From assembly GCA_964370855.1 (NCBI GenBank), contig CAYJMF010000001.1:5905-69904 (forward strand): a stretch of 64,000 bases of DNA. Reading direction: 5' to 3'. The notes beneath the pieces were generated by a model that saw nothing but the letters and a program-made list of their open reading frames with translations, had not been told where the DNA came from and made no database searches. Shown piece after piece: positions 2,882 through 39,811 of this stretch. The translations under genes were made by a program, and so were the position numbers. Within the stretch, counting starts at the first letter, position 1. The number at the start of each line of letters is the position of its first letter. Source of the stretch: an uncultured Planctomycetota bacterium. GTDB lineage: Bacteria; Planctomycetota; JAJSAM01; JAKLKS01.

Positions 2882-2957
2882 GCGGGCGTAGCTCAGTGGT
2901 AGAGCATCGGCTTCCCAAGCCGAATGTCGAGGGTTCGATCCCCTTCGCCCGCTCCAA
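2882..2957 (+). tRNA. tRNA-Gly (anticodon CCC)
   Basis: GCGGGCG acceptor stem pairing with CGCCCGC (7/7). D-arm GCTC-AGTGGTA-GAGC. Anticodon arm TCGGC-TTCCCAA-GCCGA gives anticodon CCC. T-arm GAGGG-TTCGATC-CCCTT, discriminator T, encoded CCA. Folded by eye, not by software. Confidence 0.8.
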
Positions 2958-3057
2958 ATCCCCCCGAGGCTAACAGCCTCATAAGCATGGGGTTACGACG
3001 CTTTCCCTTCCTCCGAACGGTCGGTTTGGCACAACCCGTTTGTGCCCCGAAATGCCC

Positions 3058-3100
3058 CACTTTGCCGTTTCACGGCAAAGTGGACGGCAAAGTGGCGGCG
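3058..3100. repeat. perfect 11-bp inverted repeat (CCACTTTGCCG-tttca-CGGCAAAGTGG) followed by a direct repeat of CGGCAAAGTGG
   Basis: Seen directly. Lies between the tRNA 3' end and the stop of the minus-strand integrase. Candidate integrase arm-type site, att-region element or terminator. Confidence 0.4.
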
Positions 3101-3148
3101 GACCCCGGGATAGGGGGTGCGGCGGTGCTGGAAGGCCCTCGGCGAGGG

Positions 3149-4394: not shown

Positions 4395-4715
4395 GCGGCC
4401 TCCCGACCCGGGGCGCGCCCTGCCGGCGCCCCCGCTCCGAGGAGCCTAACGTGGAGGGGGCCCATCGACTGCTTCTTGGTTGCCGGGGCGGTCCGGGAGT
4501 CCTCCACCGGGGCGGGGCAGGTGCGGGGCCCCCGGGGTAGAGTCCCGGGGTCACCACCGGGAGGTCCCTTGGCTGGTCCCAGATCCGTCGAACCGGGCTT
4601 CGGGCGCCGGATGCCGCGTCTCCCGGCGGTGGAGACGCTCGCCCGGATCCCCCCGCTGGCCATCCTGGTGTTCCGGGCCACGGCGCCGGTGGCGGTGCCC
4701 CGGAAGGCGACCACC

Positions 4716-5375
4716 ATGATGCCGGAGAAGGAGTGGGAGGCGAATCGGAGGATCGAGGCGGCACGGCCGGGGGCCCACGCGGCGTCGATTCGGGCTCTGG
4801 CGCGTTGGTTCCGGCACCGGGAGATCCCCGTCTACCAGGTGACGGCCCGGGCGGCCATGGTCGAGGGGGTGCTCCGGGGGCCCTGGAGGGATACCGACCC
4901 GGGGCTCGTGGGGCGACTGCTCGAGTACCCGGCGAAGCCGCGGGCGTGGGTCGAACTGCTCCCCTACCTCGAACTGTTGCGGCTCCTTCGGGTCGAAGGA
5001 CATCCGAAGGCAGTACTGGCCGCGGCCCGCGAGGCGGTCGTCGGCGCCGAGAAGTCAGGGGATCCCTTGGGGATGCTGCACGGCGTGCGGGAGGTTGCGG
5101 CGATGCTGCAGGAAGATATCGCGATCCTGCACTGGGCGTCGGTCGATGAAGCCCGCGCCGCGGCGGCTCCTTCCGCGAAGGGTGGCACCGACGGGGGGGA
5201 CCCCAAGGACCCTCTGCGAACGATTCCAGAAGCGGCGAAGAGGCTGACGCTGGGGGTCCGAACGGTATGGAGGGCCATCAGCGTCGGACAGTACCGGGTC
5301 GTCCGCCTCTCGAAGAGGGTGGTCCGCATGAAGGAGTCGGAGATCCAGAGGATTCTCCGCAATAGAGAACCGTAG
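4716..5375 (+). CDS. DNA-binding protein with C-terminal HTH_17 (excisionase/MerR-like) domain
   Basis: C-terminus IPEAAKRLTLGVRTVWRAISVGQYRVVRLSKRVVRMKESEIQRIL is an HTH_17-type helix-turn-helix. Divergent from the integrase. Start uncertain (ATG 4716 or 4611; track ORF from 4365). Confidence 0.5.
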   Translation: MMPEKEWEANRRIEAARPGAHAASIRALARWFRHREIPVYQVTARAAMVEGVLRGPWRDTDPGLVGRLLEYPAKPRAWVELLPYLELLRLLRVEGHPKAVLAAAREAVVGAEKSGDPLGMLHGVREVAAMLQEDIAILHWASVDEARAAAAPSAKGGTDGGDPKDPLRTIPEAAKRLTLGVRTVWRAISVGQYRVVRLSKRVVRMKESEIQRILRNREP

Positions 5376-24799: not shown

Positions 24800-26188
24800 T
24801 CACTCCCCGAGGGGCACGACAACCACGCGGAGGCTCAAGAAACCGCTGTTGTCCGTGAGGTTCTTGTCATTGACACGGACCGTGAGTTCGCCGCCCTCGT
24901 TCTCGATGCGCACGAGACCTGAAACGACTCCCGCCACGATCACAGCCTTGCCGGCCCGGAGGAGCAGAGACCCGTGGGTGTACTGCCCGTCGATGGAAAG
25001 GCGGTCGAGTTCATCACCGGCGAAACCCCCGGGGCCGCACTTCCCGACGAAGGTCCCGAGGGTCCACTCTCCGCTGGCGCTGATCCCGATGAGATCCCCT
25101 TTGCGAGCGGTCGCACCTATCTCCTTCCAATCAGAACGGGAATCCACCTTGACCTTAAGGTCCTTGATGCCACCAACGGCCCTCTCCAGCTTCTCAACCG
25201 ACGCGGCCCCATCCTTCCGAGTCTTCTCCATCCACGCTCTCGTCTCAGCGAACCCCAACTTGGTTTCGTAGGCCCCGTTCTGATCGAGGAACCCCGTCAG
25301 GTCGTCCATCATCGTCCCGATCCGCCCGATGTTCGCTTTCGAGTCGGAGCGCACGCGTTCAAGAGCGCTGATCAGGGACTGCGGTTCCGGGGTCTTCAGG
25401 CTGGCGACGAACCTCTCTTGCAGGTCAGCCTTGAAGCGCTCGATCTCCGACTTGATGAGTTGAACCTTGGCGTCCACCTGCTTGCGGACCGCCGCCGGAT
25501 TGAGAAGCCGAAGCGCGACGGGGACGACCGTTGGGGATCCCTTCCAAGTGGCATCCGCCTGGAACGTCAGCCGCCCGGACAGGTTGTCGGCAGCCTTCGT
25601 CAGGTCGGCGCTGATCGTCACCTGCGCGGGCGTCACACCCCCTGAGGGGGTCACCTTGAGCCACGGGTCGTCCGTCGCCACGGTCCATCGCAGCCCCGCC
25701 TTCCCCGGGGAGTCGACCGTCAATGCAACGGTCGCGGAGGAGGGCTCGCCCGCATCGCCCTCCAGCGTCACGGCCTGGGTCGGGCCGATGCGCAGGCACC
25801 CAAGGGCGGTGAATCGGACCGGAACGTCCACAGATCCCTGCTTCGACTCGAAGCGCAGGGACACCTCGTTCTCTCCGTACTTCAGCTTCTCGTGGTCGAT
25901 GGTGAGGTTCAGGTCCGCCGGAGTGCCACCCGTCGCGCTCGACAGCGTGACCCACTCCGCCGGAGACGAGGCCGTCCAGCCGACGCTCTGGTCGGGTTGG
26001 TCGCTGGCCAACTTCAGGGCCATGGCCTTCGGTGGCTCGGTGTCGCTCCCGAACTTCCCGGTCACGATGGCAGACGTGGGGGACACGGTGAGCCTGGGAG
26101 GAGGACCGCACGCAGCGAGGCCTGCGCACCCAGCAACGAGCACAAGCGCTTCCGAGAGAAGGACCGACGGCGTCTTCATCTTGCCCAT
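24800..26188 (-). CDS. secreted lipoprotein of unknown function
   Basis: ATG 26188 gives MGKMKTPSVLLSEALVLVAGCAGLAAC, a signal peptide with a LVAGC lipobox. C-terminal beta-rich region (GEWTLGTFVGKCGPGGFAGDELDRL...). The track starts at an upstream GTG (26221). Confidence 0.7.
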   Translation of the reverse strand: MGKMKTPSVLLSEALVLVAGCAGLAACGPPPRLTVSPTSAIVTGKFGSDTEPPKAMALKLASDQPDQSVGWTASSPAEWVTLSSATGGTPADLNLTIDHEKLKYGENEVSLRFESKQGSVDVPVRFTALGCLRIGPTQAVTLEGDAGEPSSATVALTVDSPGKAGLRWTVATDDPWLKVTPSGGVTPAQVTISADLTKAADNLSGRLTFQADATWKGSPTVVPVALRLLNPAAVRKQVDAKVQLIKSEIERFKADLQERFVASLKTPEPQSLISALERVRSDSKANIGRIGTMMDDLTGFLDQNGAYETKLGFAETRAWMEKTRKDGAASVEKLERAVGGIKDLKVKVDSRSDWKEIGATARKGDLIGISASGEWTLGTFVGKCGPGGFAGDELDRLSIDGQYTHGSLLLRAGKAVIVAGVVSGLVRIENEGGELTVRVNDKNLTDNSGFLSLRVVVVPLGE

Positions 26189-26237
26189 GGCGTCCTCCAC
26201 GACCGTGTCCAGCCCATTCACTGGTAGCCTCTCCCTG

Positions 26238-26299
26238 CATTGCAGCGCATGCCATCATCGACGTGTCAGTTGCTCACGGGAAGGACAATCGTGGTCCCC
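26238..26299 (-). promoter_or_regulatory. conserved ~62-bp cis-element, copy 1 (upstream of the lipoprotein gene)
   Basis: cattgcagcgcatgccatcatcgacgtgtcagttgctcacgggaaggacaatcgtggtcccc; about 54/62 identical to copy 2 at 33672-33733. In gene sense it contains CACG-N11-CGTG. Confidence 0.5.
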
Positions 26300-26420
26300 T
26301 CCCGTTACGGCTGGTCTGCACCGCCAACACCGACCGGATGGCCAGCGTCACGTGGATCCACTGGCGACACTCGGCGGAGTTCCCGACCTACGGACTGCGC
26401 GACCTCGAACCCGTGAGTGC

Positions 26421-28670
26421 TCATGACACACTCTCGGCAAGGAGCCTGCCCATCGCCCTTCGAGCCCCTTTGGGATCGAGGTGACCGGAAGCGTAAGTAG
26501 CCGCGAGCAGGTCCGCGGGGAGGAGAGAGTCGTACTTCTCGCGAAGCCTGTTCTTGACGCCCTCGGCCATCACGATTCCTGACGGAGGGTCCGATGCCTC
26601 CAATGGCTCGAGGATCTCGCGCATTTCCCGGGGGGACTTTCCCATGACCTGGAGCGCGATGCCATCGTGGCTGACCTCGAGCCCCCTGCCCTCAAGGAGG
26701 ATCCGGATGGTGTGCATCGCGAGATCGCCCATCCACGGGAAGAGGAGTGTGTCGGAGCCGCTTGACACGATGCGGGACTTGTCGAGTCCCAGAGCCGCGA
26801 AGTTGCCTCGGGCCTCGATGAGGAGACGCCGTGCCGTCGTGTCGAGGTAGGGCGGGACCTCCGAAGAACCGTAGACCCTCACCATCTCCTCCCGCACCCG
26901 ATCATGAACGAGGGCACGGCCCCCGCCGAAGAGCGGCGCCCTCCCTCCGGGGGCGGGCACCAGGTCGATGACCAGGCTCTCCGCGTCCACCGAGACGACC
27001 TTCCAGCGCCGCCCCGCGAAGATGAGGAAGGCCCCGACCGTGAGGGGGTAGTCGATCGGGAGCGACCCGAGCGTCCTCCCCCCGTGAACGAGTCGGTACT
27101 CGTCGGGCGTCATGAAGACCGCGTAGAACGAGTAGTGTCCGACGATGCGCTCCCCGGTCAACCCCAGGGTGAGGGAACCGTCAGATGTCTGGACGAGGAC
27201 GTCATGCTCGCCAAGGGCACGAAGCAGCTCGGCGAAAGCCCCCTGGTTGACTCCCTTGAACGGGCCTGACACGCAGAGGGCCCGCCATGCCTCCAGGGCC
27301 TGGACGCCTCCATACTGGGAGATGAGCGACAGGAGCTGCTGGACCAGGGTGGAGAGGTGCAGGGCGCCCACCCGCGGCGGCTCGTTCCACCGAGCCAGCA
27401 GCAGCTGGACCATGGCGATGGTCTGGACGAGCTCGGCGCGCAGGCGGTCCTGGGGCGGCGTGCGGGGCGTGATCTCCCGCTCCCGCACGTAGCCCCGCAG
27501 GATCCCCGGCTCTCCTCGGCGCCCGGAGCGCCCGAGACGCTGCCGGAGGCTCGCCACCGAGGGCGGGGTGCCAACCTGGGCGATGCTCGTCACGCGACCA
27601 ATGTCGATGCCGAGCTCCAGGGTGCTCGTGCAGACTGCGGTCGCCGGACGGCCCCCTTCCTTGAGGATGCGCTCCACGTCCTCGCGGAGCTCCTTCGAGA
27701 GGTTCCCGTGATGGGGGTAGAACTCGTTCGGGACGCGCTCCCGCTCGCACAGTCGCGCCAGGAGATCGGCGTACCGCTCGACGCGGTTCCGGCTGTTGGC
27801 GAAGACGAGATTGCTCGTCCCGCGGAGAGTCTTGAAGAGGTGTTCGACGATGGCGATCTCGTCGCCCGTGGGCTCCTCGGACTCCGATGGCTCCTCTCCC
27901 ACCACCTTGGGCATCGGATCTGCGGCGACGTAGCCACGGACCTGGAGCTTGAGCTCCTGGGCCTCTCCGGCGGCCTCGATGACCCGAACCGCTTCTCCCC
28001 GGCCCGGCCGGAGGAACTCCGACGCCATGGCCATGTCGCCCAAAGTGGCGCTGAGCCCGATCCTGGGGACCCGACGGCGGAGGACGAGTTCAACCCTGTG
28101 GAGCAAGGACTGGAGCTGTCGGCCGCGCTCGGACCCGATGAAGGAGTGCAGCTCGTCGATGACCACGTGCCCGAGCCCCGAGAAGACCTTCCCCACCTTG
28201 AGGCCGTGGATGACGAAGAGGGCCTCCAACGACTCGGGGGTGATGAGGAGGATCCCCGAGGGCTCCGCGAGGAGCTTCTTCTTGCGACCACCGTCCACGT
28301 CTCCGTGCCAGCGGTGCACCGGGATCTCGAGGTTCTCGCACAGCCGATCGAGCCGCTCGAACTGATCGTTGATGAGAGCCTTGAGCGGGCTCACGTAGAG
28401 GACCCGGACGCTTCCCTCGGACTTCCCGACGAGCATGGAGACGATGGGCAGGAAGGCGGCCTCGGTCTTCCCGCTCGCCGTCTGCGCCGCGAGGATGACG
28501 TCCTCGCTCCCCCCGAGGATGGGATCGACGGCCGCCTCCTGGACGTCGCGCAGATCCGTCCAGCGCTGCTCCCAGATCCAGCGGCGGACCTTCTCGTGGA
28601 GCTTCCCGAAGGCCGCGGAGGGGGAACTCGCCGCCCCGGGGCTAGAGCCGGAAGGAGGAGAGGTCATCAT
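26421..28670 (-). CDS. sngC: DEAD/DEAH-box (SF2) helicase; third gene of a TerB/ATPase/helicase (Shango-like) operon
   Basis: Start MMTSPP at 28670 (the track ORF extends to 28976). Motifs AQTASGKTEAAFLPIV (motif I), VIDELHSF (DExH), LSATLGD (motif III), helicase C-terminal domain (ICTSTLELGIDIG...QRLGRSGRRG), plus a long C-terminal extension. Overlaps the preceding gene by 29 nt. Confidence 0.8.
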   Translation of the reverse strand: MMTSPPSGSSPGAASSPSAAFGKLHEKVRRWIWEQRWTDLRDVQEAAVDPILGGSEDVILAAQTASGKTEAAFLPIVSMLVGKSEGSVRVLYVSPLKALINDQFERLDRLCENLEIPVHRWHGDVDGGRKKKLLAEPSGILLITPESLEALFVIHGLKVGKVFSGLGHVVIDELHSFIGSERGRQLQSLLHRVELVLRRRVPRIGLSATLGDMAMASEFLRPGRGEAVRVIEAAGEAQELKLQVRGYVAADPMPKVVGEEPSESEEPTGDEIAIVEHLFKTLRGTSNLVFANSRNRVERYADLLARLCERERVPNEFYPHHGNLSKELREDVERILKEGGRPATAVCTSTLELGIDIGRVTSIAQVGTPPSVASLRQRLGRSGRRGEPGILRGYVREREITPRTPPQDRLRAELVQTIAMVQLLLARWNEPPRVGALHLSTLVQQLLSLISQYGGVQALEAWRALCVSGPFKGVNQGAFAELLRALGEHDVLVQTSDGSLTLGLTGERIVGHYSFYAVFMTPDEYRLVHGGRTLGSLPIDYPLTVGAFLIFAGRRWKVVSVDAESLVIDLVPAPGGRAPLFGGGRALVHDRVREEMVRVYGSSEVPPYLDTTARRLLIEARGNFAALGLDKSRIVSSGSDTLLFPWMGDLAMHTIRILLEGRGLEVSHDGIALQVMGKSPREMREILEPLEASDPPSGIVMAEGVKNRLREKYDSLLPADLLAATYASGHLDPKGARRAMGRLLAESVS

Positions 28671-30012
28671 CGCCGCGTCCCGGTAGCGGGGGAATCTGGG
28701 GCGAAGCAACCGCCCCGCCGGGGCCTCCGATCTCCTCCTCGCCGGGGAGGGGCTCGAGATCGGGGTTGCTCTCGGTCGGGACCTGGACGCCGCCGAGCAG
28801 GTCCTTCCAGTTGGCGCCGGGGTTCTGCTCCAGGACGGAGAGGAAGTCGGCGAAGGCCTTGATCGAGTTCCGGGGAGTCCGGAAGTAGGAGTCCCCGATC
28901 CTCTTGGAGCAGTGCTCCAGGAAGCCGTGGAGCGCTTCGTCCGGGACGAGGTAGGCCTTCTCGTCGCCGCTGGCATAGACGTGGCGGATCTTCCCGAGGA
29001 GGACGTAGAGGTCCTCCGGGGTGAGGTTGGGAAGGCGCAGAACGGGCCCGCTCATGTCCACGAGGCCGTCCCGGGCGAAGGTGTTCTCGGCGAGGCGCGA
29101 CTGGAGCGCCTGGTAGCTGTAGAGGCCCTTCCGGGTGTCCATCAGGAACTCCGGAGTCCCTCCCTTCACGAAACCCAGCGACTCGGCGGAACCCTGGAAG
29201 CAGTCATTCACGATGCGCAGCACCTGCTCGTAGTTGGCGTTGCGGGCCTGGGTGTGGGCGAGCTTGTAGAGGTTCACCATCTCGTCGAGGCAGACGAGCA
29301 CGCCGCTGAACCCCGCCAGGCGGACGAACCGGGCAAAGAGCTTCAGGTGGTCGTAGAAGCTCGCGTCCTCGATGATGGTCCGTACCCCGAGCGCAGACCG
29401 GGCGTCGGTCCTGGTCGTGAACTCGGCCCGGAGCCACCGGAGCGCGTCGGACATGAGCTGCTCGTTGCCCGTGTCGTGGCCCTTCCAGTAGGCCGCGACG
29501 ACCGCGGCAAAGTCGTAGCCGCCCACCATCTCCGACAGGTCTCGAAGGCGCTCCTGGATGACCTTCTCCGGGCTGACGCCCCGCTCTCGGGCCTCCGTCA
29601 TGGCGGTGCTCACAAACCTCTCCACGACGCTCGGAAGCGCCCCTCCGTCGGGTTTCGCACGGGTGGACAGGTTCCGCATCAGCTCTGCGTAGAGCGAACG
29701 GGCCTGGCCGCCCGTCGCCTGGAGGCGGCGGTCCGGGGTCAGGTCCGCGTGGGCCGTGACGAGCTTCTTCTCCATGGCCACGGCGCGGACCAGGTGGAGG
29801 AAGAAGGTCTTCCCCGAGCCGTACTCCCCGATGACGAACCGGATGGCCGAGCCTCGGTCCGCGATTCGGTCGATGTCCTGCAGGAGGGCCTCGATCTCCC
29901 TGGCCCTGCCGACCTGGATAAGATGCTGTCCCACGCGGGGCACGACCCCGGCCCGAAGCGACTGCAGGACCGCATCCCGGTCCTTCGCGCGGATCTTTCT
30001 CGGCTCGGTCAT
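28642..30012 (-). CDS. sngB: P-loop ATPase (DUF2791-like); second gene of the Shango-like operon
   Basis: ATG 30012 (MTEPRKIRAKD) overlaps the TerB gene's stop (ATGA). Walker A GEYGSGKTF and Walker B VLVCLDEM. The long upstream part of the 823-aa track ORF is read-through noise. Confidence 0.8.
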   Translation of the reverse strand: MTEPRKIRAKDRDAVLQSLRAGVVPRVGQHLIQVGRAREIEALLQDIDRIADRGSAIRFVIGEYGSGKTFFLHLVRAVAMEKKLVTAHADLTPDRRLQATGGQARSLYAELMRNLSTRAKPDGGALPSVVERFVSTAMTEARERGVSPEKVIQERLRDLSEMVGGYDFAAVVAAYWKGHDTGNEQLMSDALRWLRAEFTTRTDARSALGVRTIIEDASFYDHLKLFARFVRLAGFSGVLVCLDEMVNLYKLAHTQARNANYEQVLRIVNDCFQGSAESLGFVKGGTPEFLMDTRKGLYSYQALQSRLAENTFARDGLVDMSGPVLRLPNLTPEDLYVLLGKIRHVYASGDEKAYLVPDEALHGFLEHCSKRIGDSYFRTPRNSIKAFADFLSVLEQNPGANWKDLLGGVQVPTESNPDLEPLPGEEEIGGPGGAVASPQIPPLPGRGDDDLSSFRL

Positions 30013-33000
30013 CGCAGGAACTCGCTCAGGGCCACGGCGTTCACATCGATCGGATCGTCCCCCTCGCAGAGGGGCTCCCCGCATCTCTCCAGAGCCGTCT
30101 CGTTCAGAACATCCAGCGCACCGTCGGGCAGCAAGCCCACCTCCGAGGCCACCCTCTCGAGGTCGGGGCGGCTCCACTGCGGTTTCGCGGCAAGGCCGCG
30201 GAGGAGTCGGCTGTGCGCGGCGTCGAAACCCTCGACGAGGTCCTCTTGGACCGACTCGGCGGGTTCCGGTGCTGCCGGCGCCTCGCACTCCTCCGAGGCG
30301 AAGATACCGCTCAGGAGGCTGGCCACGGCGGCCGTTTCCCGGAGTTTCACCTCGACGGCCTCCATATCGATGGTCACACGGCCGACGTCCGCGGGCTTCT
30401 CCGAAGCCGGCGGCTGAGGGACTGCGAAGGTCCGCGCCGGTGCCCCGGCCACGAAGACCGAGACCGGCCCGACGTCGGGAGCCGTTGGCCGGCTTGCGTG
30501 GGCGTGGGCCCGACTGAAGACTTCCTGCTCCGGGAGCCCCATCGCCTTGAAGAGCTGTCCGAGGACCTTCACCTCCGCCGGCTCGAACCGCCCGTCGGCC
30601 CCGGCGACGGACACGAGCAGGTTGGCGAGAAGGTCGCGCTGGCCCTCGGGGACCTCGATGAGCCGCTTCTTCACTCCGCCCATCCCCGGGGGAGACGCCG
30701 CGAGGTGGCGAAGGTGCGCCCGCAGACGGGTCCTCTCGGGCGGGGAGAAGTCCATGGACGACTCGAGGTGCTCCTCGAGGTGGTCCATCTCCTCGGGGCT
30801 GACGGCCCCGTCGGCGGCGGCCACGACCGAGGCCAACCGTAGAAGGAGCGAGCCGGCGAGGTAGGACGGCGTCGGGGCCTTGAGGGAGGGCTGCGTCTCC
30901 CGGAAGAGGACGACCTTCTCCCCTTTTCCCGGCGCGGCACCCCCGAACCTCACGTCGGGCTCCAGCCCGATGCCCTCCCGTTCCAGGACCTGCGCCAGGG
31001 CGACGGCGTCCGCCTTCCTGAGCTTGTTGCCCGCCACCCCGGGCCATCGCGCGAACAGGTCCTTCCCTTCGACCACGACGTGGTCCTTCCCGGCGAGGGA
31101 GGTGTCCACCCACTCGAGGAGCGCCTTTCCTCCCGCCGTCTCCCTAGGGGACACGAGCCCCTCCGGGAGAAGCGCCGCGGCGGCCAGGGTGCCCGCGGCC
31201 CTGGGACTGCGGTTCACGAACCGGCTGTAGGCATCAAGCTCGTCGGCACAACGGTCGGCGAGCTCGGCCAGGTCGTGGATGGGGCGGCTCAGCCGGTCGA
31301 TGTCGGGAAGGCCATCCACGACTACCTGCTGGGGCCGCGGGATCCCCGAGCAGGCCGGGTTGTACTCCACCCTCCACTTCACGGACCTGGCCGCGACACG
31401 GAGCCCCTCGGCGTAGGCCTGCGAGTAGCGAATGAGGAAGATCTTCCGGAACTCTTCGGGGCATCGTCGCGCCGGAGTCCGGAATCTCACCTCCGGGTGG
31501 TGCAGGAGCCACGCGAACGCCCACTCGCCGGGAAGCGGCTTCCCCTCGGAGATGAATGTTCCGATGGCCTTCTTCAATCTCGGAGGGATGCCCCACCCTC
31601 GCCCTTCCAGGGGCGTCGAGGGTGCGGCAGCCTCGGGTGCCGGCAGGATGAATTCCACGAAGTCGAGGAACTGCCCGGAGTAGGAGCGGAAGGAGCCGTT
31701 GCTCCCGTTGAGTTCGCGAAGCCGCCGCACCTCGTCCAGCAGGGCTCGTGTCTCGGCGACCAGCGTGGCGCTCCGGCTCCGGTCGCCGAGGATGCGCCTC
31801 TCGATGCCGTAGAAGTGCAGGAACACGTGTCCGATGCCGATGCCCGGGTCGTTCCTCCCCTGCTCCATCCATTCGATGTGGGCGGCACGGGCCGCAGGAG
31901 TGAGCGTGGAATAGGAAGGCCAGTAGCTCATCGTGGCCCCGGCCCGGTCGGGACTTGTGAAGTTGGCCGGCAGCTTCGGGTCAATGAGGGCCGGCTCCGC
32001 GTCCCACTCCGACGAGAGGCTGGGCAGTCCCTCGCCGAAGTAGTACCCGCCGCCGGGGAGTTCCCTCCCGCCGATTCGCACCGAACTCCCCGGAGGGACC
32101 CAACAGTCCTGCTCTCTTGCCTTCCCTTCCTTCTTGGACCGGGTCCCGAAGCCGACTCCATCGAACGTGACGGAGTCCTCCTCGGGTTCCCTCCCCCGCG
32201 TCAGGGAGCTGCCCCCGACCTTGACCTCAACCCTCAAGCCGTACCCGAGGTTGACCGCGAGGGGAACTGTCCCAGGAAGGGGCTCGACTCTGACGGGCTC
32301 TCGGCCTGGACCGGGTTCCGGGGGCGAGTAGCTCACGGGCCTCTCCGGGGCCGTCGCCGGCACGCTCTCCCCCCTTGGTGGCGGCCGGTCAGGCACCATC
32401 CTCGAAGGTTCGGTGCCAAGCCTGTCGAGGCACGCCTTTGCGTCCACGTGCTGGAGGTTCACCGCGAAGAACTGCTCCCTCGTCGCGTAAAGAGCGTGGA
32501 CACGGCGGGTCTCCTCCTGCCCCGTCGCCGGATCCAGGTCCCGGACCCACGCCCGCACCGAGATCGCCTTCGTGTGATTCGTGTAGAGCGAGTGGAACGC
32601 CTCGTAGGCGGTTCGGAGCGTGGCTTGCACGAGGGCCGCCTCGAAGAGCGCTCGATGGTCCGCCTTCTTCATCGCGGTCGGCCGCACCTCGTCCCCACGC
32701 GCCACGTACCTGTACTCGGCCACGGACGGGATCGCCCGCTGCGGCGGGAGCATCACGTCCACGACCAGCGTCCCCCTGGGCGCGTCATACACGGCGGTAT
32801 ACTCCCGCGGGAAGCAGTCCGGGTAGGTCGAGCGCTCGAAGACCCCGCGCACGTACTCCTCGATGGCAGAGGCCTCGCCCGCATCGAACCGCCGGCGAAA
32901 GTCCTCCACCTCCCGATTGCGCTCAGCCTGTCCTTCTTCGTACCGCGCCTTCTGACGCCAGTGGGACTCCCATGACTTCTTCCTGGCCTCCTCCCAGGCT

Positions 33001-33605
33001 CGCACCTGGCTCTGCCATCGCTCTTCGTGAGCGCGGGCCTTCTCCTGATCTCCCTGCAGGATCTCCGCTTCAAGGGCAAGTCGTCGCCTCTTGAGTGACG
33101 GCAAGAGCCACTCCCAGAAGCTCGGCTTGGGAATCGAAGAGGGTAGAGGTGAAGGTGGTTGGACGGGGTGGGGGGGCTCGAACGAGAACGGCGGGAACGG
33201 CGCCGTGTCCATGAGCTCCGCCCACTCGAGCCTGGGACTCGTCTTGAGGGCGGCCGGCAGGAGCGAACCCAGGGCCGTGAGCGTCTCCTGAAGACTCTGG
33301 TTCGCCCGCTCCGCATCGTCCTTCGCCCGATCGCGGGCGTCCGTCTTGGCGGCGGCGATCCGCTGCCGGATCTCCTGCTCGTCCCACTTGAGGAGGAGGT
33401 TCTTCGCCTTGCCTCGGACTTCCGCGTCGGACTTCCCCTGGACCGTCCGCACCTCGTTCAAGCAGGAGTTCCGGACGGTCGCGACGTAGACGGGGACGGA
33501 ACGCCGCCGTCCCGACGGAGTCATCCAATCGACCGTGACCCCAATGGTGTGGGACCTTCGCTCGATTTCAGCCCGGATCGCCCGCTCGTCCTCTTCCGAC
33601 CCCAT
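30009..33605 (-). CDS. sngA: large TerB-N/TerB-C domain protein; first gene of the Shango-like operon
   Basis: TerB-type motifs (LRLASVVAAADGAVSPEEMDHLEEHLESSMDFSPPERTRLRAHLRHL and LANLLVSVAGADGRFEPAEVKVLGQLFKAMG). Start chosen at 33605 (MGSEEDE), downstream of the conserved cis-element; 33674/33692 are alternatives. 1198 aa. Confidence 0.75.
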   Translation of the reverse strand: MGSEEDERAIRAEIERRSHTIGVTVDWMTPSGRRRSVPVYVATVRNSCLNEVRTVQGKSDAEVRGKAKNLLLKWDEQEIRQRIAAAKTDARDRAKDDAERANQSLQETLTALGSLLPAALKTSPRLEWAELMDTAPFPPFSFEPPHPVQPPSPLPSSIPKPSFWEWLLPSLKRRRLALEAEILQGDQEKARAHEERWQSQVRAWEEARKKSWESHWRQKARYEEGQAERNREVEDFRRRFDAGEASAIEEYVRGVFERSTYPDCFPREYTAVYDAPRGTLVVDVMLPPQRAIPSVAEYRYVARGDEVRPTAMKKADHRALFEAALVQATLRTAYEAFHSLYTNHTKAISVRAWVRDLDPATGQEETRRVHALYATREQFFAVNLQHVDAKACLDRLGTEPSRMVPDRPPPRGESVPATAPERPVSYSPPEPGPGREPVRVEPLPGTVPLAVNLGYGLRVEVKVGGSSLTRGREPEEDSVTFDGVGFGTRSKKEGKAREQDCWVPPGSSVRIGGRELPGGGYYFGEGLPSLSSEWDAEPALIDPKLPANFTSPDRAGATMSYWPSYSTLTPAARAAHIEWMEQGRNDPGIGIGHVFLHFYGIERRILGDRSRSATLVAETRALLDEVRRLRELNGSNGSFRSYSGQFLDFVEFILPAPEAAAPSTPLEGRGWGIPPRLKKAIGTFISEGKPLPGEWAFAWLLHHPEVRFRTPARRCPEEFRKIFLIRYSQAYAEGLRVAARSVKWRVEYNPACSGIPRPQQVVVDGLPDIDRLSRPIHDLAELADRCADELDAYSRFVNRSPRAAGTLAAAALLPEGLVSPRETAGGKALLEWVDTSLAGKDHVVVEGKDLFARWPGVAGNKLRKADAVALAQVLEREGIGLEPDVRFGGAAPGKGEKVVLFRETQPSLKAPTPSYLAGSLLLRLASVVAAADGAVSPEEMDHLEEHLESSMDFSPPERTRLRAHLRHLAASPPGMGGVKKRLIEVPEGQRDLLANLLVSVAGADGRFEPAEVKVLGQLFKAMGLPEQEVFSRAHAHASRPTAPDVGPVSVFVAGAPARTFAVPQPPASEKPADVGRVTIDMEAVEVKLRETAAVASLLSGIFASEECEAPAAPEPAESVQEDLVEGFDAAHSRLLRGLAAKPQWSRPDLERVASEVGLLPDGALDVLNETALERCGEPLCEGDDPIDVNAVALSEFLR

Positions 33606-33671
33606 CGGCACCCCACCGTTCAGCGCCCGTCTGCTCCGATTCTCTCCTTCAGCAGCCGGAGGAACTCCCTT

Positions 33672-33733
33672 CATTGCAGCACCCACCATCATCGACGTGA
33701 TGGTTGCTCACGGGAAGGACAATCGTGATTCCC
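33672..33733 (-). promoter_or_regulatory. conserved ~62-bp cis-element, copy 2 (upstream of the TerB gene)
   Basis: cattgcagcacccaccatcatcgacgtgatggttgctcacgggaaggacaatcgtgattccc; see copy 1. Confidence 0.5.
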
Positions 33734-34001
33734 TGCCACCCACACTCGTGGGTACATCGACTTCCTGGCGCTCATTGTCCATGGAGACTGCGAGCCGGCA
33801 TCTTCGTCATGAAAACTGTCAGTCGAAGCGTGGAGGTTCCCCGCCTGCGGCCGGAGGCACTGAGGGAGCAGTGTCCATTCCGACGCCAGATTCTGCCCCT
33901 CGTGAACAGGTCAGGCCATGCCGCAGGGGGGAAAGTGCCAGCAGACTCAAGTGAAGACGGTGGTTGACCTGGGTGGACTCGCGTCCTAGCATGGCCGTCG
34001 G

Positions 34002-37000
34002 ATGGGCCGGCAAGGTGAGGGCATTGTCATGATGAGATTCCGGGGCGCATCTCCTGATTCCTCTCGACCGAGGTGGCGGTGGGCGCTGCGTTCCATAGCC
34101 AACTGCGGACTCATGGTGCTCCTCGCCGCATCGCCGGGCAGTTCCGAGGGCGCGGAAGAGAGTGCTCCCTCCTGGGAGGTCTACACCAGCCCCTTGAACC
34201 GCACCCCGTATGAGATCCATGTGGACCGGAAGGCCCGGACCAAGACCTTCGTGGGGCCCACGGGGGAGACCTTTGGCTCCATCGAGGAGATCCTCGCCGC
34301 CGAATCGAGCGGGCTGAGTCCCTTGCAGCGGGTCGTCGCCCCCTCCCTCTGGGGCCACCTGCAGTCCCCCACGCCCTCGGGGGACCTGGTCCCGGTCACC
34401 ATCGTCCTTCGCAACCAGCCCGCCCACGACGCGAGCCAGGTCGCACGGGAGCGCCATGCGCCTCGGCTCGCCGAGGCCCTCGGCAGGGCGCGGCGGATCC
34501 TCGGGCGCCTGGAGCCCCTCCTTCCCTCGCCCGAGGTCCGGAAGCGGATGACCCTCCGTCAACTCATGGAGGCGGAGGGCGCGCTCCTCACGGTCGAGGA
34601 GAAGGCCGAGTTGAAGGCCGTTCGCGAGGAAGTCCGCGCCACGCTGGGGATCCTGCGGTCCGAGGTCCTGGCTCAGGCACGTTCCCAAGCCCAGGCGGAC
34701 AAGGCCCCCATCGTGGCGTGGCTCGCCGCCACGCCCGGGTGCAGGCTCGTCGGGGACTCCACCATCCTCAGCGCGGTCTTCGCCGAGGTCCCGGGCCACG
34801 TGATCGAAACCATGGTGGAGACCTTCCCGGAGATTGCCCGCGTCTCACCTATCGGCCGGGCCGAAGCGACCATGAACACCAGCACGGGGACCATCGGCGC
34901 CTCCGACTGGTGGAACGCCGGGTACAACGGGAGTTCCTCGACGAAAGTGGCGGTGGTGGACTCCGGGGTTGACTCGGGACACCCGGCCCTTTCGAGCGTG
35001 GTCTCCGACGCCGCAGTCCACCTCGCCTACGGGAAGCTATTGTCGGTCTTCAACGACAGTTCCACGAGTACCGACGACCTCCACGGGCATGGCACCCATG
35101 TGGCCGGAACGGTGGCAAGCACTGACTCCACCTACCGGGGAGTGGCCTACGGCGGTTTAGTGATGGGCGCGAAGTGCCTGTTCAGGACCACCACCGGAGG
35201 CGCCGGCGGGGTTGACCCCGACATCTTCAGCGCCATGGACTGGGCGACGGACAACGGCGCCGACGTCTTGAACCTGAGTCTCGGGGGCTCCTCATCGAAC
35301 GGCGGGGAGAGCGACATCGCACACTTCTGCGATGCCGTTGCGTACGGCCTTGTCATCCCCGTGGCGGTGGCCAGCGGGAACTCGGGCTCAAGTTCCGGAA
35401 CCGTGGGAACTCCCGGGGACGCCTACAACGTCATCACCGTCGGCAACTTCGATGACTGGGACACGACCGGCCACTCCGACAACATCTTGTCCTCCTCCAG
35501 CAGCAGGGGGCCCACTTCGGATGGAAGGCGGAAGCCCGACTTGAGCGCGCCGGGGGAGGACATCGCTTCCTGCAACAACACCTGGGAAGGTGCGGGCTCC
35601 GACTTCGTGAACAACTCCGGCACCAGCATGGCGTGCCCCCACGTCGCCGGCTCCTGCGGCATCCTCCTTGACTACGCCTCGTCCTGGTCCCCGGAGGCGC
35701 TGAAGGCCCTTCTCGTCACCACGCCAAGGAACACGTCACCGTACCCGACCTCCCCCGACAACAACTGGGGGTACGGCGGCTTGAACCTCGCCTCCGCCTA
35801 CGCGCACCGGGCCTCCATCTACGAGGGGACGCTGACGAAGACCGGACCGGAGTTCGTCTTCCTGAAGCTGGGCTCCATGACTGCGGGGGACAGGTCCACC
35901 CTCGTCTGGAACCGCCACGTGACCTCGAACAACGCCTCCGCACCGACGGTGTACTACTCGCTCCTCGACCTTGATCTCTACCTCTACGACGAAGCAACGG
36001 ACACCGAGCTCGACTACAGCCTCTCCGGGCTCGAGCCCGTCGAGCAGTGCTCCGTCTCCTCGACGGTCTCCTCTCCCGTCGCCAAGGTGTACCGATACGA
36101 CTCCTTCCCCTCGGCCTTCTCGACGGAGTACTTCGCCTTTGCGTCCGAGACGACGACCTCCCCGACCCTGGCGGATCCCCCCGAACTTGCCTGCACCTTC
36201 ACTTCGCTGCCCTCCTTCGTGGCCGCGTCCACGTCCTTCACCGTCACGGTCCAGGTCACCAACCAGGGGGACATCCGAGCCTTCTCGCCGGAAGTCACCC
36301 TGTCCATCCCGACCGGCTACACGGTGCTCTCGGGCGCCAATCCGAGGACGCTGTCCAACCTGTCGGCGGGCGCGTCGACCAGCGTCTCTTGGACCGTGCA
36401 GTCTCCCTCCTCGGGAGGCACCGCCACCTTCGACGCCGAGGCCTGGACCATCTCCTATGGCGAGCTCTTCTATGGGGACACGGTCTCCCAGGCCATGGCC
36501 ACCGATTCGGCGGCTCCAACCGGGTCGGTGGCCCTGGATGCCGGTGCCGCCGCCTCCCAGGATCTCGACGTGACCCTCTCCATTAACGCCACGGACGATC
36601 GCTCGGGGATCGCCGAGATGCGGATCCGCAACCAGGGCGATTCCTGGCCCGCCTGGACGGCCTTCAGCGCCACCGTGGCCAGGACCCTTCCGGAGGGCGA
36701 GGCGGAGAGGACCGTCGAGGTCCAGCTCCGGGACGCCGTGGGGAACGTCTCCGCCACCCTCTCGGACTCCATCTACCACGACCTGACTCCTCCCACGGGT
36801 TCGGTCGTCGTCGGAGGCGGAGCCGCCTACACCAATGCTAGGCCTACGCCGTTGACCCTGGACGCCTCCGACGGCGTGAGCGGGGTCCAGGACATGCGCT
36901 TCAGGACCGATGGCGTGAACTGGGGCAGCTGGATCCCCTACGCGGCATCGACCTCCCTGGACCTCGGGTCCGTTGACGGCGCCAAGACCGTCGATTGCCA

Positions 37001-38588
37001 GTTCCGGGACCGGGCACTGAACGTCTCCTCCACGGTCCAGGACGGCATCGTCTACGACGGCACCGCCCCCACGGGGACTCTTTCCGTGGAGGACGGCGCC
37101 TTCTTCACCGGCACCTCGACGGTGGATCTCACGATCTCCGGACTCGATTCCCTCTCCGGCCTGGAGGGGATGCGGTTCCGGGGATGGGCCGCTGACAGCG
37201 ACACGTGGTCGTCCTGGGTGCCCTTCTCGACCTCCCACACCATGGTGCTGAACGCCGCACAAGGGCTCCTGACCATCGGACTCCAGGTCCGGGACTATGC
37301 CGGGAACATGTCCACGGTCGCCTCCGACGGGATCTACTTCGACGCGACCCCGCCTACCGGGACCGTCCTCCTTCTCGACGACAGGGCCGCCATCAACACC
37401 ACCGCGATCCAGGTCCAGATGTCCTGGAGCGACGTCGGTTCCAGCGTGGAGGCCTACCGCCTGCGCAACGAGGGCGGTTCCTGGACCGACTGGGCTCCTC
37501 CCACCGCCGTCCTCCCCTGGGACCTTCCTGCGGCAGACGGAGTCAAACGCGTCGAGGTCGAGTTCCGGGACCTTTGCGGACTCGTGTCCAGCACCCTCTT
37601 CGACGAGATCCTCCTGGACACCGTTCCCCCTGTGGGGTCCTTCGCCCTGAACGGCGGGGCCGGGTACCTGCTTCCCTGGGAGGCCCTCGAGGCCGTCACC
37701 ACCTCCGAGGACACCCCCGATGGATCCGGTGTCGACGGTTACCGGTACTCCACGGACGGTGGGGAGACCTGGTCCGCCTGGTCGGACCTGGCATCGGACG
37801 GCGTCCATGAGGTGACGCGCCCGGGTGCGGTCCACCAGGTTGAGGTCCTGGGGCAGTTCCGCGACGCCGCCGGGAACGAATCCGTTGCCAGCGCCGAGTC
37901 CATCTACTTCCTGAAGGGAGACCCCCAGCGGCTGACCTTCACCCCGAACATCCGCGGGACGACCGAGCCGGGGGGCGACCATGACGCGTTCACGGTGGAC
38001 CTCGGCCCCGGGGATCTCCTCGACTTGAAGGTGTCCGCCAAGAGCAGCATCAAGAAGGGGGACTTCCAGCTCCTCGTGGACGTGTACGCTCCCGACGGGA
38101 CGAAGGTCGTGGACGGCCTCTACCCCTCCAGCTCCAAGAAGGTCGGCGTGAAGAAGTTCCCGGCTCCCGTGGCGGGCCAGTACTGGGTGGTCCTGCGCCC
38201 TCTGGGGGCGGACCTCGACGCGGGCGCGTACTACACCCTGAAGTCCAAAGCCCGGATGTCGAAGACCCGTCGCGTGATCGCGGGTTCGGTGACTCCTGCC
38301 GGGGTCCCGCCGTCCGCCGTTGTCCAGATTACCGCTGCGGATCGCGAACAGCTCAGCGGCACGATCCAGATGGCGGTCCTGGAGTCGATCGAACTCCACG
38401 GGCCCAACGACTGGACCGACCCGGTGTCGTTCACGTCCAAGGGCTACAAGCGGACCCTGCCCTCCCGCACGCTCGGCTCTGGGTCGGGGACCTACGACCT
38501 CGAGCTCTTCGGCAATGGGCTGGCCTCCTACAAGTTCCTGCTGAAGCCGCCGGTCCAGGACAAGGCCTTGACGGAGGAGGAGGAGTAA
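34002..38588 (+). CDS. secreted subtilisin-like serine protease (peptidase S8) with five tandem ~93-aa Ig-like repeats and a C-terminal PPC (pre-peptidase C-terminal) domain
   Basis: Catalytic triad contexts VAVVDSGVDSGHP (Asp), HGHGTHVAGT (His), GTSMACPHVAG (Ser). Five repeats each beginning D-x-T/A-P-P-T-G. C-terminal FTPNIRGTTEPGGDHDAFTVDLGPGDLLDL...YYTLKSK is PPC-like. Arg-rich n-region plus hydrophobic core indicates a signal peptide (start 34002 or 34029). Confidence 0.8.
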   Translation: MGRQGEGIVMMRFRGASPDSSRPRWRWALRSIANCGLMVLLAASPGSSEGAEESAPSWEVYTSPLNRTPYEIHVDRKARTKTFVGPTGETFGSIEEILAAESSGLSPLQRVVAPSLWGHLQSPTPSGDLVPVTIVLRNQPAHDASQVARERHAPRLAEALGRARRILGRLEPLLPSPEVRKRMTLRQLMEAEGALLTVEEKAELKAVREEVRATLGILRSEVLAQARSQAQADKAPIVAWLAATPGCRLVGDSTILSAVFAEVPGHVIETMVETFPEIARVSPIGRAEATMNTSTGTIGASDWWNAGYNGSSSTKVAVVDSGVDSGHPALSSVVSDAAVHLAYGKLLSVFNDSSTSTDDLHGHGTHVAGTVASTDSTYRGVAYGGLVMGAKCLFRTTTGGAGGVDPDIFSAMDWATDNGADVLNLSLGGSSSNGGESDIAHFCDAVAYGLVIPVAVASGNSGSSSGTVGTPGDAYNVITVGNFDDWDTTGHSDNILSSSSSRGPTSDGRRKPDLSAPGEDIASCNNTWEGAGSDFVNNSGTSMACPHVAGSCGILLDYASSWSPEALKALLVTTPRNTSPYPTSPDNNWGYGGLNLASAYAHRASIYEGTLTKTGPEFVFLKLGSMTAGDRSTLVWNRHVTSNNASAPTVYYSLLDLDLYLYDEATDTELDYSLSGLEPVEQCSVSSTVSSPVAKVYRYDSFPSAFSTEYFAFASETTTSPTLADPPELACTFTSLPSFVAASTSFTVTVQVTNQGDIRAFSPEVTLSIPTGYTVLSGANPRTLSNLSAGASTSVSWTVQSPSSGGTATFDAEAWTISYGELFYGDTVSQAMATDSAAPTGSVALDAGAAASQDLDVTLSINATDDRSGIAEMRIRNQGDSWPAWTAFSATVARTLPEGEAERTVEVQLRDAVGNVSATLSDSIYHDLTPPTGSVVVGGGAAYTNARPTPLTLDASDGVSGVQDMRFRTDGVNWGSWIPYAASTSLDLGSVDGAKTVDCQFRDRALNVSSTVQDGIVYDGTAPTGTLSVEDGAFFTGTSTVDLTISGLDSLSGLEGMRFRGWAADSDTWSSWVPFSTSHTMVLNAAQGLLTIGLQVRDYAGNMSTVASDGIYFDATPPTGTVLLLDDRAAINTTAIQVQMSWSDVGSSVEAYRLRNEGGSWTDWAPPTAVLPWDLPAADGVKRVEVEFRDLCGLVSSTLFDEILLDTVPPVGSFALNGGAGYLLPWEALEAVTTSEDTPDGSGVDGYRYSTDGGETWSAWSDLASDGVHEVTRPGAVHQVEVLGQFRDAAGNESVASAESIYFLKGDPQRLTFTPNIRGTTEPGGDHDAFTVDLGPGDLLDLKVSAKSSIKKGDFQLLVDVYAPDGTKVVDGLYPSSSKKVGVKKFPAPVAGQYWVVLRPLGADLDAGAYYTLKSKARMSKTRRVIAGSVTPAGVPPSAVVQITAADREQLSGTIQMAVLESIELHGPNDWTDPVSFTSKGYKRTLPSRTLGSGSGTYDLELFGNGLASYKFLLKPPVQDKALTEEEE

Positions 38589-38803
38589 TCCGGAGGCTGC
38601 ACCTCTCCAGCGGTTCATCCGAGGACACCAGTCAGGAGATGGGACTGCCGGCCATGGCGAAAACCTCGCGGCCCCCTCTCGTGACGGCTCGGAGGTTGGC
38701 CCGATGGGAGCCCGACTCGGAGATGGGGCCGTCTAGAGGTATGCTCTTTGGAGTAGACGGTCCGTCGTATCGATGCCCCTGTTCGTATACGACTGAGGAA
38801 CTG

Positions 38804-39793
38804 ATGGCCACAGCTGCCCAGGTGAAGGCTCTGATCCGCACGTACGCTGAACGCGACGACGACCGGTTCTTCACGGTCGCGCTGCAAGTCGCTGCCCATG
38901 CTGCGCGGACCGGGCACACGAAGTTCGCTCAGGAGCTGAAGCAGGTCATCGAGGAGGCTCAGTCCCGGGCAAGGTCCGCACCACCCGCACCCGGCGCAAA
39001 GATCGTCTCGATCATCCAGCCCAGGGGTGAGTTGGCTGGCCTACTTACCGTCGAGTACCCGAAGCAGCGACTCGCGAGCATGGCGCTGGACGACTCAGTC
39101 CGCCAGAGGCTGGACCGAGTTCTCCTTGAACAGAGGCACCAAGGTCGCATCCGGGAGCATGGGTTTGGTCCGATGCGCAAGCTGCTCCTGGTCGGGCCAC
39201 CCGGGACCGGGAAGACGATGACCGCGGGGGTGCTCGCGGCCGAACTGGGACTCCCACTTTTCACCATCCAACTGGATGGCCTGATCACGAAGTACATGGG
39301 GGAGACAGCAGCCAAGCTGAGGTTGATCTTCGATGCGATCCGGCAGACGCGGGCGATCTACCTCTTTGACGAGTTCGATGCCATCGGAGGCAAGCGCGTG
39401 GCATCGAACGATGTCGGCGAGATCCGCCGTGTGCTCAATTCGTTCCTTCAGTTCCTGGAGCAGGACACCTCCGAGAGTCTTATTCTCGGAGCAACGAACC
39501 ACCCTGAACTTCTAGATCGCGCCCTGTTCCGACGATTTGACTCAGTCATCGAGTACGACCTCCCTTCACCCATAGTTGCCCAATCGGTGATGAAGGCACG
39601 GCTCTCCCTGCTCGACACCTCGGAGATCGACTGGAGAGCGTCTGTTGGTGGCGCGAAGGGACTCAGTCACTCAGACGTGGCACGCGCCTGTGAGAGCGCC
39701 GCCAAGGACGCCATCCTTGCACACAAACTGAAGATCGAGACGGACGCGCTCCTTCGAGCGCTGAACGACCGAAGGGCTGTTCAAGGCAGGTAG
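38804..39793 (+). CDS. ietA: AAA+ ATPase (IetA-like)
   Basis: ATG 38804 with GAGGAA SD. Walker A GPPGTGKT, Walker B YLFDEFD, sensor-1 GATNHPELLD. 18-nt gap to the downstream S8 peptidase gene. Confidence 0.8.
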   Translation: MATAAQVKALIRTYAERDDDRFFTVALQVAAHAARTGHTKFAQELKQVIEEAQSRARSAPPAPGAKIVSIIQPRGELAGLLTVEYPKQRLASMALDDSVRQRLDRVLLEQRHQGRIREHGFGPMRKLLLVGPPGTGKTMTAGVLAAELGLPLFTIQLDGLITKYMGETAAKLRLIFDAIRQTRAIYLFDEFDAIGGKRVASNDVGEIRRVLNSFLQFLEQDTSESLILGATNHPELLDRALFRRFDSVIEYDLPSPIVAQSVMKARLSLLDTSEIDWRASVGGAKGLSHSDVARACESAAKDAILAHKLKIETDALLRALNDRRAVQGR

Positions 39794-39811
39794 TGCCCAG
39801 GAGGGGAGCGC

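What the first reader, a model, noticed from the sequence alone, without database searches (positions are those of the whole stretch)
26238..33733. A ~62-bp cis-element is conserved upstream of two unrelated minus-strand genes (the lipoprotein at 26188 and the Shango TerB gene at 33605)
Copies at 26238-26299 and 33672-33733 are ~87% identical (cattgcagc...ccatcatcgacgtg...gttgctcacgggaaggacaatcgtg...ccc). Both lie directly 5' of a gene start on the same strand. In gene sense the element contains CACGATTGTCCTTCCCGTG (CACG-N11-CGTG), a plausible dimeric operator. This implies co-regulation of the Shango operon and the lipoprotein, or a shared promoter cassette spread by recombination.
Basis: seen in the sequence. 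Interest (0 to 1): 0.65.

Follow-up and report, generated by a model that had tools for sequence, protein, structure and literature searches.

The report
Direct repeat bracketing a Shango operon
A 73-base non-coding sequence occurs twice, once in front of a Shango anti-phage operon and once right behind it in front of a neighbouring lipoprotein gene; it is most likely a locally duplicated upstream control region, a real but modest and so far strain-specific feature.

Summary
The repeat is real: 73 nt (26231-26303 and 33665-33737), 85% identical, direct orientation, and the strongest repeat in the window. Copy B lies 59 nt upstream of sngA. Copy A lies 117 nt downstream of the sngC stop and 42 nt upstream of the lipoprotein ATG. 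The genes are not "unrelated": the closest Shango relative (a Planctomycetota MAG) also carries the lipoprotein homolog next to sngA, but divergently, and without the repeat. The copies therefore sit at the two junctions of a local rearrangement. No further copy turned up in the window, species-representative genomes, JGI metagenomes, viral contigs, plasmids or phages. All public instances come from one strain, so n=2. No sigma-70 or sigma-54 promoter, Rfam family, stable RNA fold or convincing palindrome was found, and CACG-N11-CGTG is weak. Mismatches cluster, leaving perfect blocks of 25, 14 and 9 nt (joint P about 0.01). Best reading: a duplicated upstream promoter/operator/leader module, created with the rearrangement, that gives both units the same input. 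This is unproven. A neutral recombination footprint is the main rival. Interest is low to moderate.

The parts
33665..33737 (-). Repeat copy B (E-B), 73 nt, in the sngA-subtilase intergenic region; its proximal edge is 59 nt upstream of the sngA ATG
26231..26303 (-). Repeat copy A (E-A), 73 nt, 117 nt downstream of the sngC stop and 42 nt upstream of the lipoprotein ATG
26269..26293 (-). Longest perfectly conserved block (25 nt; counterpart 33703-33727); contains CACG-N11-CGTG at 26275-26293
26252..26265 (-). Second conserved block CCATCATCGACGTG (counterpart 33686-33699); holds the only -10-like hexamer shared by both copies (GATGAT in gene sense)
26276..26305 (-). Hairpin formed by the 5' edge of copy A and its upstream flank (-17.2 kcal/mol, z -1.8, no U tract); a possible sngC 3' hairpin, much weaker at copy B
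30009..33605 (-). sngA: TerB_N/TerB/TerB_C with an N-terminal Mrr/type IV REase-like region
28642..30012 (-). sngB: BrxC/BrxD-type ATPase
26421..28670 (-). sngC: DEAD/Helicase_C helicase (749-aa gene call)
24800..26188 (-). Lipoprotein (LVAGC lipobox): two BACON/Ig-like domains, a helical hairpin and a C-terminal beta sandwich; its homolog is linked to Shango in L005
33964..33992 (+). Good sigma-70-like promoter (TTGACC-17-TAGCAT) for the divergent subtilase gene; shows that consensus-type promoters exist here while the repeat has none

Best explanation
The element is a roughly 73-nt non-coding upstream module (promoter, operator or 5' leader) that was duplicated locally when the Shango operon and its partner lipoprotein gene were rearranged into tandem order. 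One copy now heads sngABC. The other heads the lipoprotein gene, and with it the downstream ORF now broken by IS1595.

Proposed working: an unidentified factor (an alternative sigma factor, an activator or a repressor) recognises the three conserved blocks, so both transcription units receive the same input. sngABC transcripts probably end at or near the hairpin that overlaps the 5' edge of copy A, and transcription restarts from copy A.

Shown: the repeat itself, its non-coding position, its same-sense placement 42-59 nt upstream of both start codons, its position at both junctions of the rearrangement, and the conserved Shango-lipoprotein linkage.

Inferred: that it acts as a promoter or operator, that both units are co-regulated, and how the duplication arose.
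For: - It is the strongest repeat in the window and has only two copies.
- Both copies have the same orientation relative to the downstream gene, lie at similar short distances from the start codons, and are outside coding sequence.
- Similarity stops sharply at both ends.
- Mismatches fall in patches, leaving perfect runs of 25, 14 and 9 nt: longest run P=0.08, adjacent mismatch pairs P=0.04, joint P=0.009.
- The two genes are evolutionary partners. In L005, SngA is 54-56% identical, SngB 82-83%, SngC 72%, and the lipoprotein homolog 49% over its full length and adjacent to sngA.
- The two arrangements differ exactly at the two places where the repeat sits.
- No integrase or transposase lies between the copies.
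Against: - There is no sigma-70 promoter in either upstream region by the consensus scan. The best hexamer pair shared by both copies, TTCCCG-17-GATGAT, scores 6.0, no better than shuffled sequence.
- The sigma-54 GG-N10-GC spacing is not met (read directly from the sequence).
- The only inverted repeat common to both copies has 4-bp arms.
- There is no Rfam match and no significant fold.
- With only two copies from a single strain, conservation cannot be separated from recent duplication or gene conversion.
- L005 has no such element, although synonymous sites are near saturation, so this says little.
- There are no expression data.
Confidence: 0.45

Rival explanations
1. Neutral recombination footprint. 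The two copies are the junction repeats left when a circular Shango-carrying segment integrated by a single crossover (homologous or site-specific) into a similar sequence upstream of the lipoprotein gene, or were left by a template-switch duplication. They have no regulatory role of their own. Their main consequence is that recombination between them could delete the Shango operon.
For: The direct repeats bracket sngABC exactly, 7434 nt apart. They coincide with the two junctions at which this locus differs from the L005 arrangement. No promoter, operator or RNA signature was detected. Only two copies exist anywhere I searched. The 25-nt identical block is near the minimal length for RecA-dependent exchange (my own knowledge, not tested here).
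Against: No recombinase gene lies inside or next to the 7.4-kb segment. The copies are 15% diverged with non-random mismatch clustering. The lipoprotein and Shango were already neighbours in a distant relative, so a simple insertion into an unrelated locus is not what happened. None of the 24 assemblies read lacks Shango. Equal sense orientation and short distance to both start codons are not required by this model.
Confidence: 0.3
2. The element belongs to a genome-wide dispersed intergenic repeat family (REP/MITE-like) of the source organism, and two members happen to fall in this window.
For: It is short, non-coding, sharply bounded and about 85% identical between copies. The rest of the source genome could not be scanned.
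Against: There are no terminal inverted repeats and no stable hairpin common to both copies. No third copy is present in 64 kb. The one partial 16-mer match at 22690-22705 is at chance level. The 22-mer has zero exact matches in the genome collection of 185,579 species, and the 19-mer has only 3 chance hits in JGI metagenomes. Both copies sit at equivalent positions in one gene cluster.
Confidence: 0.1
3. The element is a structured RNA: a shared 5'-leader or riboregulator acting after transcription, or a small RNA gene.
For: It lies in the likely 5' UTR of both genes. Copy B can form a CCAUCA/UGAUGG hairpin and copy A an 11-bp hairpin at its 5' edge.
Against: Fold z-scores range from -0.8 to +1.4 in the gene sense. 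The two copies do not share a structure. The variable patches are not compensatory (and reading of the sequence). There is no Rfam hit even at E<=5.
Confidence: 0.08

Closest known systems
Duplicated promoter/operator regions shared by members of one regulon (for example operators of defence-system regulators such as BrxR/CapW-type WYL proteins upstream of BREX/CBASS; from my own knowledge)
   Same: A short conserved non-coding block lies in the same sense and at a similar distance upstream of two functionally linked transcription units in a defence island.
   Different: No cognate regulator gene is adjacent. There is no clear palindrome and no recognisable core promoter. Only two sites exist, both in one cluster and in one strain. 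In addition, the sites bracket the operon as direct repeats.
attL/attR direct repeats flanking integrated elements (Campbell-type integration)
   Same: Two imperfect direct repeats of tens of bases lie exactly at the two ends of a gene cassette.
   Different: No integrase or recombinase lies within or next to the 7.4-kb segment. The island's tyrosine integrase sits 22 kb away beside tRNA-Gly. There is no similarity to that tRNA.
REP/MITE-type dispersed intergenic repeats
   Same: Short, intergenic and sharply bounded.
   Different: No terminal inverted repeats, no shared hairpin, and no additional copies found anywhere.
Shango defence system (SngA TerB, SngB ATPase, SngC helicase; Millman et al. 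2022 bioRxiv 10.1101/2022.05.11.491447; Johnson et al. 2023 PMC10250203, found)
   Same: The bracketed operon is a complete three-gene Shango system.
   Different: SngA carries an extra N-terminal Mrr/type IV REase-like region. A BACON-domain lipoprotein is linked to the system in two distant genomes, and no such gene is among the three components (SngA, SngB, SngC) that define the system.

Membership tests
Shango defence system (context, not the element) | Adjacent TerB-domain protein, BrxC/D-like ATPase and DEAD-type helicase | tested here: met
   PADLOC SngA 3.5e-84, SngB 3.8e-179, SngC 9.1e-281, with matching Pfam domains
Sigma-70 promoter | -35 and -10 hexamers at 16-18 nt spacing, scoring above background and conserved in both copies | tested here: not met
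   The consensus scan finds none on the gene strand. The best shared pair, TTCCCG-17-GATGAT, scores 6.0, and shuffles reach the region's best score in 161/300 and 243/300 trials
Sigma-54 promoter | TGGCAC-N5-TTGCW with GG and GC separated by 10 nt | tested here: not met
   TGGCATGCGCTGCA / TGGTGGGTGCTGCA have GG-N8-GC (read from the sequence)
Palindromic operator of a dimeric HTH regulator | Inverted half-sites of at least 5-6 bp, conserved in all copies and rare elsewhere | tested here: inconclusive
   CACG-N11-CGTG has 4-bp arms, and the frame occurs 4 more times in the window against 1.3 expected. The 6-bp CCATCA/TGATGG palindrome exists only in copy B
att sites of an integrative element | Recombinase gene inside or adjacent to the bracketed segment | tested here: not met
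   Only sngA, sngB and sngC lie between the copies. The integrase at 3149-4717 belongs to the tRNA-Gly island end
att sites of an integrative element | Empty site or excised form seen in related genomes | not testable with these tools
   All public instances are the same strain with both copies. No closer relative was found
REP/MITE dispersed repeat | Many copies per genome; terminal inverted repeats or a palindromic hairpin | tested here: inconclusive
   There are two copies in 64 kb, none elsewhere in the collections searched, and no TIRs. The full source genome was not available
Known RNA family (Rfam 15) | Covariance-model match | tested here: not met
   No gathering-score hit. Nothing relevant at E<=5
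DGR template/variable repeat pair | Mismatches confined to adenines of one copy; reverse transcriptase nearby | tested here: not met
   The 11 mismatches involve all base types. No RT domain was found among the ORFs scanned

The most novel reading that the evidence does not exclude
The repeat is the operator/promoter of a dedicated circuit that co-induces Shango and an envelope lipoprotein acting as a fourth, accessory component of this Shango lineage. At the same time, the two copies make the Shango operon a repeat-flanked cassette that can be looped out or swapped by recombination, leaving the lipoprotein under one hybrid copy.
Probability: 0.12. Interest if true: 0.55.

Novelty: new member of a known kind. 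Interest (0 to 1): 0.3.

Why it matters
If the element is a working promoter or operator, it would give a handle on how a Shango system is regulated, which to my knowledge has not been described. It would also tie an envelope lipoprotein to Shango function. If it is only a rearrangement footprint, it records how defence operons are shuffled inside an island and marks a site where the system could be lost by recombination. In either case the feature is local and strain-specific, and nothing yet shows an unusual mechanism.

Tried and rejected
- **Further copies:** none found.
  - The exact 22-mer has no match in genome contigs.
  - The 19-mer in metagenome contigs gave 3 hits with unrelated flanks, all chance.
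  - Three patterns in viral contigs gave nothing.
  - blastn against plasmids and phages gave nothing.
  - nhmmer on the window and all fetched loci found only the two copies.
- **Third partial site:** TTGTCCTTCCCGCGAG at 22690-22705 is rejected as chance. A 15/16 match was reached in 7 of 60 simulated windows.
- **Empty site or other arrangements:**
  - The lipoprotein profile found only the L005 MAG in genomes and nothing in metagenomes or viral contigs.
  - SngA found nothing in viral contigs.
- **Variation among public assemblies:** L001/L002 are identical to the window. L003/L004 differ only by N-gap and poly-G scaffolding artefacts. L020 differs by 5 low-coverage mismatches, none in the element.
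- **Lipoprotein as a general Shango partner:** rejected. More distant homologs sit beside a Peptidase_M48/TPR gene, kinase/FGE-sulfatase genes or other genes, without Shango. L006 (SngA 32% identical) has no lipoprotein upstream.
- **Coding explanations:** not supported.
  - The in-frame ATG at 33692 is not supported by the L005 alignment.
  - The short ORFs through the element are not conserved between copies (reading of the sequence).
  - There are no gene remnants in either intergenic region.
- **Other element types:** sigma-54, ECF-type AAC-N16/17-CGT and DGR readings were checked by eye and rejected.
- **XRE regulator at 22422-22646:** its own upstream region carries direct repeats unlike the element.
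- **Lipoprotein structure:** the model gave only generic tandem Ig-domain matches.
Full report
**1. Observation**

The repeat finder extends them to 73 nt, 26231-26303 and 33665-33737, with 62/73 identical and start-to-start spacing of 7434 nt. It is by far the best repeat in the 64-kb window.

Three blocks are identical: 9 nt at 26238-26246, 14 nt at 26252-26265 and 25 nt at 26269-26293. Patterns built on them match only these two sites at up to 3 mismatches, and no shuffle gives any match. A profile of the two copies finds nothing else in the window better than E=0.3.

**2. Context**

The window is a lower-GC island (about 65% against 73-75%) that begins at tRNA-Gly(ccc) 2882-2956 and a tyrosine integrase at 3149-4717. 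It is packed with defence-type genes: a DUF4041 (SNIPE)/T5orf172 protein, an XRE regulator, IS1595, subtilases plus an AAA ATPase, NERD, a radical SAM enzyme, a 1902-aa helicase-REase and Abi_alpha.

- **Genes between the copies.** A complete Shango operon lies on the minus strand between the two copies:
  - sngA 30009-33605 (TerB_N/TerB/TerB_C, PADLOC SngA 3.5e-84)
  - sngB 28642-30012 (SngB 3.8e-179)
  - sngC 26421-28670 (SngC 9.1e-281)
- **Copy B.** It lies 59 nt upstream of the sngA start.
- **Copy A.** It lies 117 nt downstream of the sngC stop and 42 nt upstream of the ATG of a lipoprotein gene (24800-26188). That gene has an LVAGC lipobox, a GGAGGA ribosome-binding site and a BACON_2 domain.
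The two copies are direct repeats that bracket the Shango operon.
- **The element is non-coding.** SngA homology to its nearest relative starts exactly at 33605. The lipoprotein signal peptide starts at 26188. The short ORFs that run through the element differ between the copies.

**3. Relatives**

Every public instance of the locus is the same strain. L001 and L002 are 100% identical to the window. L003, L004 and L020 differ only by scaffolding gaps and low-coverage errors, none in the element.

The nearest other Shango is on a 12-kb contig of an uncultured Planctomycetota MAG (L005/L007). Identities to the window are SngA 54-56%, SngB 82-83% and SngC 72%.

That contig also carries the lipoprotein homolog, 49% identical over the full length, with an in-frame stop at W215. 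There it is divergent from sngA across a 260-nt spacer.

The two genomes differ by a rearrangement whose junctions, upstream of sngA and between sngC and the lipoprotein gene, are exactly where the two copies sit. L005 has neither the element nor any flanking repeat. Because four-fold degenerate sites are 52-71% different, near saturation, this says nothing about the ancestor.

More distant lipoprotein homologs (29-45% identity) occur in other island-like contexts without Shango: after a Peptidase_M48/TPR gene, or next to kinase/FGE-sulfatase genes, once beside an integrase and an XRE gene. The lipoprotein is therefore not a general Shango component.

**4. Search for more copies**

- The exact 22-mer is absent from one genome per 185,579 species.
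- The 19-mer core gives 3 hits in JGI metagenomes, all with unrelated flanks, about the number I would expect by chance (rough estimate, not computed).
- Viral contigs, plasmids and phages give nothing.
- A 16-nt partial match at 22690-22705 is at chance level.

**5. What the sequence says about mechanism**

- **Sigma-70.** There is no sigma-70 consensus on the gene strand. In a position-weight scan the best pair shared by both copies is TTCCCG-17-GATGAT, score 6.0, no better than shuffled sequence. The divergent subtilase gene, by contrast, has a good TTGACC-17-TAGCAT, score 14.8.
- **Sigma-54.** The sigma-54-like TGGCA...TGCA has the wrong spacing, GG-N8-GC (read from the sequence).
- **Proposed operator.** CACG-N11-CGTG has 4-bp arms, and the frame recurs 4 times elsewhere in the window against 1.3 expected.
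- **RNA.**
  - There is no Rfam match, even at E<=5.
  - Folds are not more stable than shuffles, and the two copies fold differently.
  - Copy A with its upstream flank forms an 11-bp hairpin (-17.2 kcal/mol, z -1.8) that could end sngC transcripts. Copy B lacks it.
- **Mismatch pattern.** The 11 mismatches are clustered (positions 7; 17, 19-21; 36-38; 64, 66, 71). The joint probability of a perfect run of at least 25 and at least 4 adjacent mismatch pairs is 0.009. This is mild evidence for block-wise constraint or for multi-base events.

**6. Interpretation**

The facts that any explanation must fit are these:

- a sharply bounded non-coding 73-mer;
- the same sense and a similar short distance upstream of two start codons;
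- two genes that are evolutionary partners;
- copies at both junctions of a rearrangement, in direct orientation;
- no recombinase between them;
- 15% divergence in patches.

The reading that fits most of these is a locally duplicated upstream module (promoter, operator or leader). It would have been copied when the operon and the lipoprotein gene were brought into tandem, and it now gives both units the same input. I give this 0.45.

The main rival is that the copies are a neutral junction footprint of that rearrangement or insertion, whose only consequence is possible loss of Shango by recombination between them (0.3). The two readings differ in present function, not in origin. A dispersed repeat family (0.1) and an RNA element (0.08) are less likely.

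**7. Comparison with known systems**

The element resembles regulon-type shared operators and att-type flanking repeats, but it meets the defining tests of neither. There is no cognate regulator, no clear palindrome, no recombinase and no empty site. It is not a known RNA family, REP/MITE or DGR repeat.

The bracketed genes are a bona fide Shango system (references located). Two local peculiarities stand out: an N-terminal Mrr-like region on SngA, and a linked lipoprotein.

**8. Verdict**

The repeat is real and was correctly spotted. The feature is a strain-specific local duplication of an upstream region in a defence island, with unproven function. Interest is 0.3, and I class it as a new member of a known kind.

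Noticed in passing
window 30009-33605 (-); L005 1761-5279: SngA carries an extra N-terminal region of about 400 aa resembling Mrr/type IV methyl-directed restriction enzymes (PADLOC mREase_IV 1.3e-22, aa 97-397) ahead of TerB_N/TerB/TerB_C. The L005 homolog has a similar length (1172 aa) and aligns from residue 1.
   Followed up: partly
window 24800-26188 (-); L005 106-1500 (-): A BACON-domain lipoprotein is linked to this Shango lineage in two distant genomes, tandem here and divergent in L005. The L005 copy has an in-frame stop at W215. The AF2 model (pLDDT 86.8) shows two Ig-like domains, a long helical hairpin and a C-terminal beta sandwich. More distant homologs recur in island contexts without Shango.
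   Followed up: partly
window 22949-24076, and 22749-24591 (-): An IS1595 element (40-nt terminal inverted repeats, 90% complementary; transposase 22991-24025) has inserted into the gene downstream of the lipoprotein. The 281-aa ORF 23746-24591 runs into the IS, and what looks like the original C-terminus continues at about 22948-22749.
   Followed up: partly
window 2882-4717, extending to about 61000: tRNA-Gly(ccc) followed by a tyrosine integrase marks one end of a defence island of about 55 kb with lower GC (65% against 74%). No second copy of the tRNA 3' end is present in the window, so the far boundary is undefined.
   Followed up: partly
window 34002-42331 (+): A cluster of a 1528-aa subtilase (S8 with CARDB/DUF11), an AAA ATPase (38639-39793) and a second subtilase (39812-42331) lies divergent from Shango. 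The first subtilase gives PADLOC subtilase and IetS-like hits, so this may be another defence module.
   Followed up: no
window 22340-22421: Upstream of the XRE gene (22422-22646) lies a tandem direct repeat, TACGAGTCGTCTCTG / TACGTATCGTCTCTG. It is a likely operator for that regulator and is unlike the 73-nt element.
   Followed up: no
L003 8653-8754; L004 8716-8751: Apparent sngC disruptions in two public assemblies are runs of N and poly-G/C scaffolding artefacts, not mutations.
   Followed up: yes
window 46041-51749 (-): A 1902-aa protein combines DUF4011, AAA_11/AAA_12 helicase domains, an MTES_1575 REase domain and DUF3320. It is another large defence-type gene in the island.
   Followed up: no
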